In this document: positions 33,001 to 54,000 of the stretch, piece by piece
Position numbering within the stretch: position 1 is the first letter of the stretch
Layout of the letters: each line of letters opens with the position of its first letter
NCBI RefSeq assembly: GCF_964204865.1
Contig: NC_135263.1
Coordinates: 9,610,001-9,674,000, forward strand
DNA length: 64,000 nucleotides
Origin: Styela clava
Lineage: Eukaryota
Reading direction: 5' to 3'
Position numbers: made by a program

Positions 33001-36000
33001 TAGATAGATTATGCTATAATGTCTGCAACTATTATAATATATTACCTGCATGATTTACCGGTTATTTATCGATATTATCACACCCCATATATTTATTTGT
33101 CATTTAATTAGTATAACATTTCCATATAAGTAATTATAAACATTTAAATATTTATTTTTGGTTCTAAATATGTGATTTTTACTAGTATTAGAAAATTAGG
33201 TTACCGTAATTTAACATCACACTTTCGTTTGACGGATCCCTAGTTTTCTATATGTGTGATTTCATAATTCATTATTTTATTTCGGTTTTAATTATTTAAA
33301 TTGGTAATATTTATGAGTTTAATATTATGTTACTTAATGTTAAGTTAGAAAAATTATTAGTTATAAATAAAATATCATCATCTAGTACTTGATCTTTGGT
33401 TATAATATACCGAGCAACCAACAGCTATGTGAGGGATGAGGCGACGCGACAAGTAGATTACTGAAAAAGAAAGCGGATCATACCGCCAGCGCAGTCGAAG
33501 AAATTATCCTGGGTTAATGACACCTTCTTACTGTACATGTCTGTCCATGTCTATGTACTGTCCATCACCTACCTCTATTGATTGGCGGCTTTCGGTTCGG
33601 GTGTTATACCTATATATACTTCCTATTGTAACATACAATTGATGCAGCCACCATTCAGCACGGTCATAACACGGTACAGTTATCCAGTAAGCCCAATTGC
33701 AAATCATGAAGATATGTACAACTTTATTTTCAAATGTTACATCAGCATAATTATCTCTTGTTCTTTATCGGATAATAATGGAAAACGTGTGTTGTCACTT
33801 TTTTATTGTTGTCATACGAATTCCTTTCATACATATATATATAAAATTTCAAGAGCATCAATTACAATATTTACCATTAATGACATTATTATAGCGAACA
33901 TTTAAATAGAATATTAAACAAAAGTCACATTTCTAGTGAGCATGCAATGGATCAACACTTTCACTAATTTATAAATAATGCTTGGTTGAATAGTAAGTAA
34001 GCATTCCTTGAATATAGTGGATTGAAGTGTATCGACGAAAAGTATGATCTATGTTTGAGGCGTTTTGATTATATCTTTATTCAATTCTTTTGCTATAACC
34101 TCTCCTACTTGTGAACCTGTGGCCAGATCAGTTCCATTTGACTTCTGTTTTTTCGGACCTGCAGTAAAAGCGACAATAATTGTTGAGTGGAAAGTTTATA
34201 AAAATCTTGAATCCAGTAAAGAACCAGTTAACACTATTTTATTTACAGGTAAGTAAGTAAGATTAATAAGTAAATGATACTCACATAATTTACAGCAAAA
34301 TCTTACTGCGTAGTCCTCACAGCATATTCCCTCCGGTTGTTTTTCATTCTTGCAAATTAGGCCAACCTGAGTGTCCACCACCATGTCAACATTGCCACCC
34401 GATTGCCAGGAGTCCTGAGTTGCCACAACAATGGCATCAATCGCAGTTGGTTTCTCACATACCTTGTCCTGGTTTTGGCTTACCAGATCTGACAAAAGCT
34501 CGTAGTCGCCTGTACTGTCGGTAGGATCATCTACGTCATACCAGTCTGTCCAATCGTAGCCTTCTTCGTCGCACTTCGGCACTGCAATGAATACAAAAAA
34601 GTCATGTGGCCAGTTAGATAACATCTCAAATACCAAATAATATTGAATAGTTAACAGACGACATTGCCTTTAAAGGGCTTGTGTGGCGTATGGCAAATAA
34701 AGTGAATGAAAATTCCATCCAATGTAAACTTACATTTCGGACAGCAGAATCTGATTTTCAGATCTGGGCATTTTCTATCTCCTCGGTCATTGATACAGGC
34801 AACTCCTCCAGTGGGAGGATAAATAACCAACTGTTGCGCCAATGGTGGTGGATCATTGGGATTTACCAACTCAAAGTGTTGCGCCACTGGATTCTCACAT
34901 GGTTTCCTAGGAAAAGACGACCATGTCTCCCAATCACCAGTTACGCTTGGATCATCCCTGTCTAACCAACCGCTCCAATCCCCGTTTTGACATTTAGGAA
35001 TAACACCGAGTTCTGTGACATACCAAAGATATTAGTTACAAATTTGAAAGATAAAAAAAAAATTAACAAACACTAAAATAGATAAATACAAGTATAAATG
35101 GGTTGACCCATTTTCAAACACACGTTTTTCGCTACAAATATTTATTGTCATTTTCAGATAAATCGTAAATGATATTATTGTATAGCATAATTTTGGCCAT
35201 AATCCATACGTCAGCGCACTTGTATTCTAACTAAAGTACAGGATTTGTAAATCAACATTTTCTCATGTTAAACGAGTTTAAACGGAGAAATTGATATAAA
35301 TTTTAATAAAACATTTGTTTAACTAAATGGGAGTATTTGTGCTTATGTGGCCTGGTAGGGCACTGGTCTAGCAACCATTATTACCTAATGAAATTATTTT
35401 TTAAAATTTTTTAATCGTCACTGTTGTCGGAGATACCAAAATGCGAGCTGTATAAGATGTATAAGAATTTAGAACCTTTCAAACAATGTATTAAATAATT
35501 CTCGTGAAGATTATGTGCCTTCTTGTAATAAATTCGGTGTGTAAATTGTAAAATTTTGTATTATATTGTAAAAATATACTTACGGGCACTGCTCTGATCC
35601 ACGAACATCAACACAGTAAAACAACAGGACAAAATAATTTTGAACATCATTTTTTAGCGATTTCGTTATTTGTTCAAGTTTAAAACAAATAGGTATGGCA
35701 AAAGTCGGTGCTGCTAGCTTTATAGTAAAATAGTTCCGGTAATGAATCATTATATTAACCGCTGCTTGTTTTTGTAATAATAAAAAAAAGATGAGTAAAA
35801 ATTACTCAATCAACTATTAGTGCACATTAATTAAAACTGCATAATTAAGAAAATTATATTCAAACGCAAATACGGTTTATTTAAACGTGTGTTACATCAA
35901 CATGTATTAAACAGTTTTAAAGTGCAGCCTGTAATTTAGATCGACAACCGACAACCCAGTGTTCAAACTAGATGGTATTACATAACCGAATGAATCGAGG

Positions 36001-51000: not shown

Positions 51001-54000
51001 GGAGTAGACACCGCGGCTGGCTGTGGTACTTTTGATATCTCAAATGCTGATCGACTGGGATTCTCAGAAGTAGAACTAGTCCAAATGGTAATAGAATGAG
51101 TAGAACTTATGATCAGCTGTGAGAAGAAATTGGAATCCGGACAGAGCATCGAATCCGACGTCGACAAACAGAAGCAAAAGTAGACTGATGCAGTTTTCAC
51201 ACTACCTTTCACAAAAGTTTACGGTCTTCTTCTAATTTTATTCTATAGAATATATGTTATCCTAATGTCTGCAACCAGTGTATATTACCTGCCGATATTA
51301 TTACACCCATATATATATTTATTTGTCACGTTCACGGTATATATTTGTTTCAGCTATTTAATTAATTTGACATTTTCATATAAGTAATTATAAACATTTA
51401 AATATTTATTTTAGGTTCTAAATATGTGATTTTTTACTAGTATTAGAAAATTGAGTTACCGTAATTTAATATCAATCACATTTTCGTTTGACGGATCCCT
51501 AGTTTTCTATATGTGCGATTTCATAATTCATTATTTTATTTCAGTTTTAATTATTTAAATTGGCAATATTCATGAGTTCAATATTATGTTACTTAATGTT
51601 GAGTTAGAAAAATTATTAGTAATAAATAAAATATCATCGTCTAGTACTTGATCTTTGGTTATAATATACCGAGCAACAAACAGCTATGTGAGAGATGAGG
51701 CGACGCGACAAGTAGATCACTGAAAAAGAAGGCAGATCATACCGCCAGCGCAGTCGAAGAAATTATCCTGGGTTAATGACACCTTCTTACTGTACATCCA
51801 AGAACTATCACCTCTATTGATTGGCGACTTTCGGTTCGGGTGTTATATCTATACTTCCTATTGTAACATACAATTGATGCAACCACCATTCAGCACGGTC
51901 ATAACACGATACAGTTATCCAGTAAGCCCAATTGCAAATCATGAAGATATGTACAATTTTATTTTCAAATGTTACATCAGCATCTTTAGCATCAGTAATC
52001 TTTAGTTCTTTATCAGATAATAATGAAAAACGTATGTTGTCAATTTTTTATTGTTGTCATACGAATTCCTTTCATACACATATATATACATAAAATTTCA
52101 AGAGCATCACTTATAATACTTCCCATTAATGACATTATTATAGCGAACATTTAAATGAAATATTAAACAAAAGTCACATTTCTAGTGAGCATGCAATGGA
52201 TCGGCACTTGCACTAATACATATATAATGCTTGATTGGAAAGTAAGTAAGCATTCCTTGAATATAGTGGATTGAAGTGTATCGACGAAAAGTATGATCTA
52301 TGTTGGAGGCGTTTTGATTATATCTTTATTCAATTCTTTTGCTATAACCTCTCCTACTTGTGAATCTGTGGTCAGATCAGTTCCAATTGGCTCCTGTTTT
52401 TTTGGACCTGTAGTAAAAGCGACAATAATTGTTGAGTACAAAGTTTGTAAAAGACTTGAATTCAGTAACGAACCAGTTAACACTACTTTATTTACAGGTA
52501 AGTAAGTGAGAATAATAAGTAAATGATACTCACATAATTTACAGCAAAATCTTACTGCGTAGTCCTCACAGCATATTCCCTCCGGTTGTTTTTCATTCTT
52601 GCAAATTAGGCCAACCTGAGTGTCCACCACCATGTCAACATTGCCACCCGATTGCCAGGGGTTCTGAGTTGCCACAACAATGGCATCAATCGCAGTTGGT
52701 TTCTCACATACTCCATCTTGGTTTTGGCTTACCAGATCTGACAAAAGCTCGTAGTCGCCTGTACTGTCGGTAGGATCATCTACGTCATACCAGTCTGTCC
52801 AATCGTACCCTTCTTCGTCGCACTTCGGCACTGCAACGAATACAAAAGAGTCGTGTGGCCAGTTAGATAACATCTCAAATACCAAATAATATTGAATAGT
52901 TAACAGATGACATTGCCTTTAAAGGGCTTGTGTGGCGTATGGCCAATAAAGTGAATGAAAATTTCATCCAATGTAAACTTACATTTCGGACAGCAGAATC
53001 TGATTTTCAGATCTGGGCATTTTCTATCTCCCCGGTTATTGATACAGGCAACTCCTCCAGCGGGAGGAAAAATAACCAACTGTTGCGCCAAAGGTGGTGG
53101 ATCATTGGGATTTACCAACTCAAAGTGTTGCGCCACTGGATTTTCACATGGTTTCCTAGGAAAAGACGACCATGTCTCCCAATCACCAGTTAAGCTTGGA
53201 TCATCTCTGTCTAACCAACCGCTCCAATCCCCGTTTTGACATTTAGGGATAACACCAAGTTCTGTGACATACGAAAGATATTAGTTACAAATTTGAAAGA
53301 TAAAAAAAAATTAACAAACACTAAAATAGATGAATACAAGTATATATGGGTTGCCCCATTTTCAAACACAAGTAAAAACAATCGTTCACCGTATTTTAAT
53401 CGTTTTTCGCTACAAATATTTATTGCCATTTTTAGATAAATTGTAAATAATAATATTGTATAACATAATTTTGACCATAATCCATGCGTCAGCGCACTTG
53501 TATTCTAACTAAAGTACAGGATTTGTAAAACCACATTTTATCATGTTAAACGAGTTTAAACGGAGAAATTGATATAAATTTTAATAAAACATTTGTTCAA
53601 CTAAATGGGAGTATTTGTGCTTATGTGGCCTGGTAGGGCACTGGTCTAGCAACCATTATTACCTAATAAAATTATTTTTTAAATTTTTTCAATCGTCCCT
53701 GTTGTTGGAGATACCAAAATGCGAGATGTATAAGGTGCATAAGAATTTAGAACCTTTCAAACAATGTATTAAATGATTCTCGTGAAGATTATGCGCCTTT
53801 TTGTAATAAATTCGGTGTGCAAATTGTAAAATGATGTATAATATTGTAAAAATTTACTTACGGGCACTGCTCTGATCCACGAACAGCAACACAGTAAAGC
53901 AACAGGACAGAACAATTTTGAACATCATTTTTTGCCGACTTCGGTATTTGTTCAACTTTAAAACAAATAGGAATGGCAAAAGTCGGTTTGTGCTGCTAGC

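What the first reader, a model, noticed from the sequence alone, without database searches (positions are those of the whole stretch)
34049..53928. Tandem family of four intact 'mini-mucin' genes: signal peptide + two CysD domains, no PTS region
Seen: four genes with retained TATA boxes, splice sites and 250-aa frames. Each encodes a signal peptide, an N-terminal Gln, two WxxW/CysD domains (the second strongly acidic) and a short tail. In the same units two of the three CK-exon copies are damaged, which suggests selection preserves the CysD genes. Known: CysD domains normally sit within gel-forming mucins (MUC2, MUC5AC, MUC5B), CILP or repeat-rich oikosins, and are implicated in Ca2+ binding and mucin cross-linking. 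Inference: a dosage-amplified free CysD protein that could cross-link or modulate mucus-net or tunic matrices. This is the best candidate for an undescribed system in the window.
Basis: partly seen in the sequence, partly recalled or inferred. Interest (0 to 1): 0.72.

Follow-up and report, generated by a model that had tools for sequence, protein, structure and literature searches.

The report
Four tandem CysD-only secreted-protein genes
A sea squirt (Styela clava) carries four intact tandem copies of a small secreted protein made only of two mucin-type CysD domains; the genes are real and conserved, but this kind of protein is already known from fish and other animals.

Summary
Window 32.7-55.6 kb is a four-unit tandem repeat of about 6 kb. 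Each unit holds a four-exon, 250-codon gene on the minus strand: a signal-peptide exon, two Mucin2_WxxW (CysD) exons and a short tail exon. All junctions are phase 1 with GT/AG kept, and every copy has a TATAAAG and an AATAAA. NCBI annotates copy 2 letter for letter as an uncharacterized 250-aa Styela clava protein. Both domain exons pass Pfam and fold as CysD. The second domain is very acidic (net -15). Exons vary less than introns (p = 0.003), dN/dS is 0.22-0.41, and two of three co-duplicated creatine-kinase exon copies are broken, so the proteins are under selection. There is no PTS, VWD or other mucin exon in the window.

The claim of an undescribed system fails. Secreted CysD-only proteins are common in annotated genomes of teleosts, Ptychodera and Patella. 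The zebrafish member was knocked out in 2025 and is a cupula matrix protein. Oikosin 1 is a tunicate tandem-CysD protein. Orthology with the fish family is not shown. The most likely role is a Ca2+-binding, non-covalent matrix or hydrogel component or cross-linker, by inference only. Verdict: a new member of a known kind, of modest interest.

The parts
34049..35650 (-). CysD-only gene, copy 1. Exons (high to low): 35650-35584 (signal peptide), 35012-34734 (CysD 1), 34581-34285 (CysD 2, acidic), 34158-34049 (tail and stop).
   Evidence: frames, GT/AG, phase 1; Pfam per exon; tblastn, charge.
40686..42316 (-). CysD-only gene, copy 2. Exons: 42316-42250, 41649-41371, 41218-40922, 40795-40686. Identical to NCBI protein LOC120340583 (P0001).
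   Evidence: pieces exact at P0001 positions 1, 24, 117 and 216, with split codons Q, A, C.
46621..48251 (-). CysD-only gene, copy 3. Exons: 48251-48185, 47584-47306, 47153-46857, 46730-46621.
   Evidence: 11 residue differences from P0001 in the in-frame pieces.
52298..53928 (-). CysD-only gene, copy 4. Exons: 53928-53862, 53261-52983, 52830-52534, 52407-52298.
   Evidence: 10 residue differences from P0001 in the in-frame pieces.
35717..35724 (-). TATAAAGC 74 nt upstream of the copy 1 ATG. Equivalent boxes lie 78, 79 and 78 nt upstream of the ATGs at 42316, 48251 and 53928.
32683..55614 (.). Tandem array of four units: 32683-38517, 38518-45186 (with a 726-bp insertion at 39302-40027), 45187-50862, and 50867 to about 55614. 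It starts inside the last intron of the kinase gene.
32727..32963 (+). Region holding the true last exon of the creatine-kinase-type gene (+ strand, convergent with copy 1). It reads [10 protein letters not shown]...KQKQK then stop.
   Evidence: ATP-gua_PtransN at 30744-30977, ATP-gua_Ptrans at 32486-32764.
38621..38869 (+). Kinase last-exon copy in unit 2. The frame is open and the AG acceptor is kept.
45290..45550 (+). Kinase last-exon copy in unit 3. The stop codon is lost (TAG to TTG) and the frame runs on.
50970..51218 (+). Kinase last-exon copy in unit 4, with an internal stop codon.

Best explanation
These are four functional paralogues, made by tandem duplication of a unit of about 6 kb in Styela clava. 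Each encodes a 250-residue precursor: a cleavable signal peptide, probably leaving an N-terminal Gln; a divergent CysD domain with a Pro-rich hydrophobic loop; a very acidic CysD domain (net -15); and a 36-residue Lys-rich tail. The protein belongs to the class of secreted CysD-only proteins (fish si:dkey-205h13.2/'Mucin-5AC', oikosin 1). It is not a gel-forming mucin. Shown: gene structure, domain identity, predicted CysD fold, conservation of the W..W.D.DDP...GD.E motif and of every cysteine in all copies, and purifying selection. Inferred: each CysD binds Ca2+ as MUC2 CysD1 does. With an even count of 14 cysteines in the mature chain, there is no free thiol. The two-domain protein then acts through reversible, non-covalent contacts as a building block or bivalent cross-linker of an extracellular hydrogel (mucus net, gut mucus, tunic or another gelatinous matrix). 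The four copies would raise dosage. Which matrix and which partner are unknown.
For: Gene models. Independent NCBI model identical to copy 2. Domains: Pfam calls for exon 2 (43.4 bits) and exon 3 (78.1 bits) against a cut-off of 22.4. Exon 3 matches MUC5AC, MUC5B and MUC2 CysD chains by sequence (8 chains, best E 3.4e-7). AF2 per-exon models have pLDDT 88.7 and 91.6. In Foldseek against the PDB, the top 8 matches are all mucin CysD domains for both models, TMq 0.59-0.71 and 0.56-0.70, and the next match falls to E 0.7 and 0.38. Invariant W, D, G-D-x-E and P columns across 55 aligned sequences and across the eight Styela domains. Selection: dN/dS 0.22-0.41 in 6 of 6 pairs. Variable sites are 46 of 753 in exons against 87 of 848 in introns (p 0.0027). 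Codon positions 1+2 give 25 of 502 (p 0.0007 against introns) and position 3 gives 21 of 251 (p 0.47). There are 0 gapped exon columns against 31 gapped intron columns. In a neutral simulation at the intron rate, all four copies stay stop-free in 509 of 20000 runs. Two of three co-duplicated kinase exon copies are broken. Function by analogy: the zebrafish CysD-only protein is needed for cupula length (PMC11765562, passages). MUC2 CysD forms non-covalent dimers (PMC3195396, passages). CysD1 is a beta sandwich with two Ca2+ (PMC7599080, passages). A secreted 12xCysD transgene makes mouse mucus more robust (PMC4431476, abstract).
Against: No expression, localisation or binding data were available here. 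The AF2 models were built from alignments of CysD homologues, so they lean towards that fold. Exon 2 has no sequence-level PDB match at E <= 1, and its Foldseek E-values are only 0.01-0.26. Both domains lack the 10-cysteine, 5-disulfide pattern of mucin CysD: they have 6 and 7+1. In the alignment with MUC5AC CysD7, two of its cysteines face non-cysteines in domain 2. The domain tree gives no orthology with the fish protein, so transferring its function is weak. The substitution counts are small and the pairs are not independent. The mosaic similarity between copies suggests gene conversion, which can also keep frames open. One kinase exon copy is still open without any obvious function.
Confidence: 0.6

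Rival explanations
1. The exons are modules of longer mRNAs. Read-through and splicing between neighbouring copies (exon 3 of one copy to exon 2 of the next) would give 4-, 6- or 8-CysD proteins like the multi-CysD fish proteins or oikosin. On this view the 250-aa model is only one isoform or an annotation shortcut.
For: All junctions in all four copies are phase 1 and the genes are head to tail on one strand, so inter-copy splicing would stay in frame. CysD-only proteins elsewhere carry 2 to 27 domains (PMC11765562) or 2-6 tightly packed domains. P0001's cluster holds 8 member sequences for 4 genes, and its content could not be listed.
Against: Each copy keeps its own ATG and signal-peptide exon, tail exon with stop, TATAAAG and AATAAA. 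The signal-peptide and tail exons stay open in 4 of 4 copies, which would not be needed if they were skipped. NCBI's model for copy 2 is the stand-alone 250-aa protein.
Confidence: 0.1
2. This is a young segmental duplication with no selection on most copies. The frames are intact only because the copies are recent and are homogenised by gene conversion. One copy does the work and the others are on their way to decay.
For: dS is only 0.055-0.09. Relationships switch along the gene: copies 1 and 2 differ by 0.7-2% upstream and in introns 1-2 but by 7.1% in intron 3, where 2-3 and 3-4 differ by 3.2%. That is a sign of conversion or unequal crossing-over. One non-functional-looking kinase exon copy is also still open. 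At the exon-level rate, the simulation keeps all four copies open in 11.8% of runs.
Against: Exons vary less than introns (p 0.0027), and the deficit lies at codon positions 1+2. dN/dS is below 0.45 in all six pairs. There is no indel in 753 nt x 4 copies. Only 2.5% of neutral runs at the intron rate keep all four open, counting substitutions alone. All 14 mature-chain cysteines and the Ca-loop motif are invariant in the four copies.
Confidence: 0.12
3. The protein is a secreted recognition or defence factor, for example a binder of microbial or dietary glycans or of cellulose, rather than a structural cross-linker. The tandem expansion and divergent surfaces would reflect an interface with the environment.
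For: Tandem amplification is typical of interface genes (general knowledge). In the tail exon, non-synonymous differences outnumber synonymous ones in all pairs (Nd 1-6 against Sd 0-1). Domain 1 is very divergent, on a stem branch of 2.32 in the tree. One paper argues that the CysD fold is a stable scaffold on which new interaction capabilities can evolve (PMC11912381, passages).
Against: No lectin or antimicrobial family matched. The variable sites are few. Every characterised CysD context seen in the papers read is a matrix or hydrogel.
Confidence: 0.13

Closest known systems
Fish CysD-only secreted proteins (zebrafish si:dkey-205h13.2, published as 'muc5AC'/Mucin-5AC; auto-named 'mucin-5AC-like', 'CILP2-like' or 'WxxW domain-containing protein' in many teleosts)
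   Same: A signal peptide followed only by Mucin2_WxxW/CysD domains packed back to back, with no PTS, VWD, C8, TIL or cystine knot. Two-domain members of 200-260 aa are common (PMC11765562). Cysteines per domain are reduced, with a mode of 6.
   Different: Only 33-46% identity per domain. In the tree, teleost D1 and D2 form their own clades, and the Styela domains sit elsewhere on long branches, so orthology is not shown. The Styela protein has a Lys-rich tail exon, an unusually acidic second domain (only 3 of 93 comparison domains are as acidic) and a four-copy array. Neuromast expression is known only for fish.
[quoted passage not shown]
   Same: A tunicate secreted matrix protein built of tandem CysD domains with WxxW motifs, thought to hold the mucous house together (PMC3195396, passages).
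   Different: It has 13 domains against 2. No oikosin sequence was fetched or compared here, so the relationship is untested.
[quoted passage not shown]
   Same: The domain family and predicted fold are shared, as are the WxxW motif and the acidic Ca-loop motif.
   Different: In mucins the domain sits between PTS regions of a VWD-C8-TIL protein and has 10 cysteines. Here there is no PTS or VWD in the gene or the window, and the domains have 6 and 8 cysteines.
Engineered secreted 12xCYS-domain molecule in transgenic mice (Gouyer et al. 2015)
   Same: It is a free, PTS-less CysD protein delivered into mucus, and it makes the gel more robust (PMC4431476, abstract).
   Different: It is artificial, has 12 identical domains of MUC5B origin, and is mammalian.
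CILP1/CILP2 (cartilage intermediate layer proteins)
   Same: They contain a CysD-like WxxW domain (PMC3195396). Many CysD-only proteins are auto-named after them.
   Different: As I recall (not from any call), CILP also has TSP1 and Ig domains and a long C-terminal part. None of these is in this gene. The TSP1-repeat exons at 21.5-23.2 kb lie on the other strand, about 11 kb away.

Membership tests
CysD / Mucin2_WxxW domain (PF13330) | Match to the family profile above its curated cut-off | tested here: met
   Exon 2 scores 43.4 bits and exon 3 scores 78.1 bits against a cut-off of 22.4, both covering profile positions 1-88 of 88.
CysD / Mucin2_WxxW domain (PF13330) | WxxW motif followed by the acidic D.DDP...GD.E loop | tested here: met
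   WSGW and WTDW are present, and the loop residues are invariant in all eight Styela domains and across the 55-row alignments.
CysD / Mucin2_WxxW domain (PF13330) | Small beta-sandwich CysD fold | tested here: met
   AF2 pLDDT is 88.7 and 91.6. The top 8 PDB matches of each model are all CysD domains, TMq 0.56-0.71. These are predictions from family alignments, not solved structures.
CysD / Mucin2_WxxW domain (PF13330) | Ten cysteines forming five intradomain disulfides (mucin-type CysD) | tested here: not met
   There are 6 cysteines in domain 1, and 7 plus one split-codon cysteine in domain 2. Two cysteines of MUC5AC CysD7 align with non-cysteines. Six per domain is the mode in CysD-only proteins (56 of 93 domains).
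CysD / Mucin2_WxxW domain (PF13330) | Binding of two Ca2+ ions | not testable with these tools
   Only conservation of the acidic motif is shown. The structural basis comes from PMC7599080.
Gel-forming mucins (MUC2/MUC5 type) | N-terminal VWD-C8-TIL assemblies and a C-terminal cystine knot | tested here: not met
   No such family is in any exon or in the neighbouring ORFs scanned (10 ORFs). tblastn finds only the eight CysD exons.
Gel-forming mucins (MUC2/MUC5 type) | Long PTS (Pro/Thr/Ser-rich, O-glycosylated) region | tested here: not met
   S+T+P is 0.15-0.29 per exon. Among 696 ORFs of at least 40 aa in the window there is no mucin-like PTS exon. The only minus-strand frames near 0.55 are the antisense frames of the kinase exon copies.
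Secreted CysD-only proteins (fish si:dkey-205h13.2 class) | Signal peptide plus CysD domains only | tested here: met
   The N-terminus MMFK-hydrophobic-DQSSA|Q is signal-like by eye, as no signal-peptide predictor was available. There are two PF13330 domains and nothing else. The same layout is seen in 10 of 10 comparison proteins scanned.
Secreted CysD-only proteins (fish si:dkey-205h13.2 class) | Orthology (domain-for-domain descent) with the fish family | tested here: inconclusive
   The quick ML tree had 97 domains and 94 columns, and 11 of 93 inner branches were starred. The Styela domains do not join the teleost D1 (support 90) or D2 (97*) clades and sit on long branches.
Oikosins | Sequence relationship to oikosin 1 CysD repeats and expression in a matrix-secreting epithelium | not tested
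   No oikosin sequence was retrieved. This rests only on the literature description.

The most novel reading that the evidence does not exclude
The Styela genes are the tunicate counterpart of the fish cupula protein. On this reading a CysD-only hydrogel protein of mechanosensory organs (the gelatinous cupulae of ascidian cupular and coronal organs, which I recall from memory and not from any call) predates vertebrates. That would give a molecular marker linking tunicate and vertebrate hair-cell accessory matrices. The tree neither supports nor excludes this, because the domains are short and fast-evolving.
Probability: 0.05. Interest if true: 0.7.

Novelty: new member of a known kind. Interest (0 to 1): 0.25.

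Why it matters
This is a clean, compact example of a CysD-only secreted protein in a tunicate. It is amplified to four selected copies and has one unusually acidic and one unusually divergent CysD domain. CysD domains are thought to tune mucus and matrix gels through reversible contacts. Small natural two-domain versions could be handy reagents for studying how CysD domains interact, and markers for a Styela secretory tissue. It does not reveal a new kind of system, because the architecture is widespread and one family member already has a knockout phenotype.

Tried and rejected
1. Homodimer test of domain 1 (complex prediction): no answer (score 0.00, mark 0.32). It counts neither for nor against binding. 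The tool did not use my alignment.
Whether the members are the four paralogues plus isoforms therefore stayed unchecked.
3. Word-based searches with each domain exon, 'longer' lengths: exon 3 found only P0001 and a 661-aa unnamed tandem-CysD protein among 22 candidates. Exon 2 found only P0001 among 19 candidates. No close relative outside Styela was seen, but the sensitivity is limited.
4. Sequence search of exon 2 against PDB chains: 0 matches at E <= 1.
5. A hidden mucin context (VWD or PTS exons) was looked for and not found.
6. The reading of 'CK' as cystine knot is rejected: it is a creatine-kinase-type exon.
7. A bacterial origin for the CysD-only protein P0147: no relative among the prokaryotic species genomes. 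27 stretches matched a pattern, none was confirmed.
8. Literature on the Styela gene: 0 papers for LOC120340583. 'CysD' + 'ascidian' gave 1 unrelated paper. 'Styela clava' + 'mucin' gave 28 papers, of which 12 were listed. The endostyle transcriptome paper only says 'mucin 5AC was detected'. Supplementary tables were closed and may list this gene.
9. The joined (spliced) protein of my own model was never built, searched or folded. Every search and fold was done exon by exon. The full-length check rests on reading NCBI's P0001 against the separate exon pieces.

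
Full report
**What is there**

The window has about 35% G+C and no N. It comes from the ascidian Styela clava: an exon-level protein search returns the NCBI entry 'uncharacterized protein LOC120340583 [Styela clava]' at 99% identity. It is not human sequence.

Between about 32.7 and 55.6 kb lies a head-to-tail array of four units: 32683-38517, 38518-45186, 45187-50862 and 50867 to about 55614. 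The units are 90-97% identical over most of their length. The second carries a 726-bp insertion.

**Gene models**

On the minus strand each unit holds a four-exon gene. For copy 1 the exons are 35650-35584, 35012-34734, 34581-34285 and 34158-34049.

In all four copies the frames are open, donors are GT, acceptors are AG and every junction is phase 1. The total is 22+1+92+1+98+1+35 = 250 codons. The first exon reads MMFK, then a hydrophobic stretch, then DQSSA. The cleavage site is my reading by eye, because no signal-peptide predictor was on hand.

A TATAAAG lies 74-79 nt upstream of each ATG, and an AATAAA lies 242-256 nt after each stop. NCBI's 250-aa protein P0001 equals copy 2 exactly. Its four exon pieces sit at positions 1, 24, 117 and 216, with the split codons Q, A and C between them. 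Copies 1, 3 and 4 differ from it at 8, 11 and 10 residues.

I never built, searched or folded the joined protein. The full-length agreement rests on comparing separate pieces with the public entry.

**Domains**

- Exon 2 matches Pfam Mucin2_WxxW at E = 5.7e-11, and exon 3 at E = 8.7e-22. Both cover the full profile. Exons 1 and 4 match nothing.
- Exon 3 matches CysD chains of MUC5AC, MUC5B and MUC2 in the PDB by sequence (8 chains, best E = 3.4e-7). Exon 2 matches none.
- AlphaFold2 models of each exon, made with 55-row alignments of homologues, reach pLDDT 88.7 and 91.6.
- In Foldseek against the PDB, the eight best matches of each model are all mucin CysD domains. TMq is 0.59-0.71 for exon 3 and 0.56-0.70 for exon 2. 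The next match drops to E = 0.7 and E = 0.38. The models lean on family alignments, so this is confirmation rather than independent proof.
- The two domains are only 31-32% identical to each other, and the window has no further CysD exon.
- They share PKC, W..W.D.DDP...GD.E, C-E-x-P, G..C.N and C.D...RFCC. Every cysteine is invariant in the four copies.
- Domain 1 has 6 cysteines. Domain 2 has 7 plus one in the split codon. The mature chain therefore has 14, an even number.
- This is fewer than the ten cysteines of mucin CysD domains (PMC3195396, passages). It is typical of CysD-only proteins, where six per domain is the mode (56 of 93 domains).
- Domain 2 is strongly acidic: pI 4.05 and net charge -15. 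Only 3 of 93 comparison domains are as acidic.
- No exon is PTS-rich.

**Not part of a mucin**

Ten neighbouring ORFs scanned in Pfam gave creatine-kinase-type domains, a TSP1 repeat, an HLH, a DNA methylase and a retrotransposon zinc finger. None gave VWD, C8 or TIL. Among 696 ORFs of at least 40 aa there is no mucin-type PTS exon.

That gene ends at about 32.95 kb on the plus strand, tail to tail with copy 1. The duplication unit starts in its last intron, so each later unit carries a copy of that exon. One copy is open, one has lost its stop and one has an internal stop.

**Selection**

- dN/dS is 0.22-0.41 in all six pairs, and dS (0.055-0.09) is like intron divergence.
- Across the four copies, 46 of 753 exon sites vary against 87 of 848 intron sites (Fisher p = 0.0027).
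- The deficit is at codon positions 1+2: 25 of 502 (p = 0.0007 against introns). Position 3 shows 21 of 251, like the introns (p = 0.47).
- Exons have no gapped column; introns have 31.
- With substitutions at the intron rate, all four copies stay free of stops in 509 of 20000 simulations.

Against this, the counts are small and the pairs share history. The pattern of similarity also switches along the gene: copies 1 and 2 are nearly identical upstream and in introns 1-2, but in intron 3 copies 2, 3 and 4 are the closer ones. That points to gene conversion or unequal crossing-over.

**Comparison with what is known**

An exhaustive HMMER search with exon 3 found 1057 representatives at E <= 0.001. 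Among the 151 proteins then held, 41 are 320 aa or shorter, and 14 of these, including P0001, have a signal-like start by a crude test. I scanned 10 of the other 13 in Pfam. All 10 have two or three Mucin2_WxxW domains and no other family above its cut-off.

A profile of eight such proteins then found 218 proteins of 108-426 aa at E <= 1e-10. Of the 120 listed, 117 carry PF13330 alone. They come from many teleosts, Rhinatrema, Heteronotia, Ptychodera flava and two Patella species. Their automatic names include 'si:dkey-205h13.2', 'mucin-5AC-like', 'CILP2-like' and 'WxxW domain-containing protein'. The ESM Atlas search with exon 2 also lands on PF13330 clusters, one of them named Si:dkey-205h13.2.

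[quoted passage not shown] It has a signal peptide plus six CysD domains and no PTS or VWD, with two domains in medaka and 27 in a skate. It is expressed in neuromast support cells, and mutants have shorter cupulae and a weaker startle response (PMC11765562, passages). Oikosin 1 of Oikopleura has 13 tandem CysD domains (PMC3195396, passages).

Orthology is a separate question. A quick maximum-likelihood tree used 97 domains and 94 columns, and only 11 of 93 inner branches were well supported. In it, teleost first and second domains form separate clades (support 90 and 97). The two Styela domains sit on long branches among invertebrate and unnamed sequences. They are not sisters, and neither joins a fish clade. 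Descent from the fish family's ancestor is thus neither shown nor excluded.

**How it most likely works (inference)**

MUC2 CysD1 is a small beta sandwich with two bound Ca2+ ions and exposed hydrophobic contact residues (PMC7599080, passages). MUC2 CysD forms non-covalent dimers (PMC3195396). The fold is described as a stable scaffold on which new interactions evolve (PMC11912381, passages). A secreted artificial chain of 12 CysD domains makes mouse mucus more robust (PMC4431476, abstract).

By analogy, the Styela protein is most likely a secreted, Ca2+-binding, two-headed module. It would take part in or cross-link an extracellular gel through reversible contacts, with no free thiol for covalent links. 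Which gel is open: mucus net, gut mucus, tunic or a sensory cupula. A Styela endostyle transcriptome paper mentions only that 'mucin 5AC' was detected (PMC9953650, passages), and its supplements were closed.

**Limits**

No transcript, tissue or binding data could be reached. The single complex-prediction job is listed only under Tried and rejected. The cluster membership of P0001 could not be listed.

No paper in the held library mentions LOC120340583. Nothing on CysD-only proteins in ascidians came from these searches:
- 'CysD' + 'ascidian': 1 unrelated paper
- 'CysD' + 'mucin' + 'Ciona': 2 papers
- 'Mucin2_WxxW': 3 papers
- 'WxxW domain': 3 papers
- 'Styela clava' + 'mucin': 28 papers, 12 listed

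**Verdict**

The gene family is real and under selection. It is wrong that such proteins are undescribed. This is a new, lineage-specific member of a known kind.

Noticed in passing
38621-38869 (+): The kinase last-exon copy in unit 2 keeps an open frame, its AG acceptor and its stop. It differs from the true exon at a few residues ([10 protein letters not shown] against [10 protein letters not shown]). It could serve as an alternative 3' exon of the creatine-kinase-type gene, spliced across the antisense CysD gene.
   Followed up: no
34049-53928, all four copies: Relationships between copies switch along the gene. Copies 1 and 2 differ by 0.7-2% upstream and in introns 1-2 but by 7.1% in intron 3, where 2-3 and 3-4 differ by 3.2%. 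This mosaic suggests gene conversion or unequal crossing-over within the array.
   Followed up: partly
39302-40027; 55955-56130: Unit 2 has a 726-bp insertion that the other units lack. Part of it (39629-39826) is 74% identical to 55955-56130, just past the end of the array, so it is probably a dispersed repeat.
   Followed up: partly
32727-32963, 38621-38869, 45290-45550, 50970-51218 (-): The antisense frames of all four kinase-exon copies are open for 79-87 codons on the same strand as the CysD genes. They are 53-55% Pro/Thr/Ser in their richest 40-aa window. This is probably a by-product of the sense codons, not a mucin exon.
   Followed up: no
34052-34156 and equivalents (tail exon 4): The tail exon has more non-synonymous than synonymous differences in every pair (Nd 1-6 against Sd 0-1). 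Its pI ranges from 9.35 to 5.0 between copies. An NGT sequon is present only in copy 1. Constraint on the tail may be relaxed or diversifying.
   Followed up: partly
21470-23197 (+): There are exons with thrombospondin type 1 repeats (TSP_1 at E 4.1e-9 in 21470-21829, and WSxWS-like motifs in two further ORFs). They belong to another secreted-protein gene on the opposite strand, about 11 kb from the array.
   Followed up: partly
61069-61362 (-); 27770-28550 (+); 56753-57259 (+): These look like mobile-element relics: a reverse-transcriptase zinc-binding domain (zf-RVT, E 1e-6) and several long ORFs with no Pfam match.
   Followed up: partly
P0147 (195 aa, unnamed representative): This is a two-CysD protein whose N-terminus looks like a bacterial signal peptide. 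No relative was found in one genome of each of 185,579 prokaryotic species, so its source stays unknown.
   Followed up: yes
P0002 (661 aa, ENA, unnamed): It is the closest non-Styela protein by word search (40% identity to domain 2). It has six full CysD domains back to back with no PTS, several of them as acidic as Styela domain 2 (net 12-17). Its organism is unknown.
   Followed up: partly
3714-7617 (+); 13396-17258 (+): Other genes in the window are a DnaJ/DPH4-like ORF, DNMT2-like cytosine-methylase exons (DNA_methylase, E 2e-8) and a bHLH gene with a long Ser/Pro/Thr-rich exon (HLH, E 2.3e-11).
   Followed up: partly
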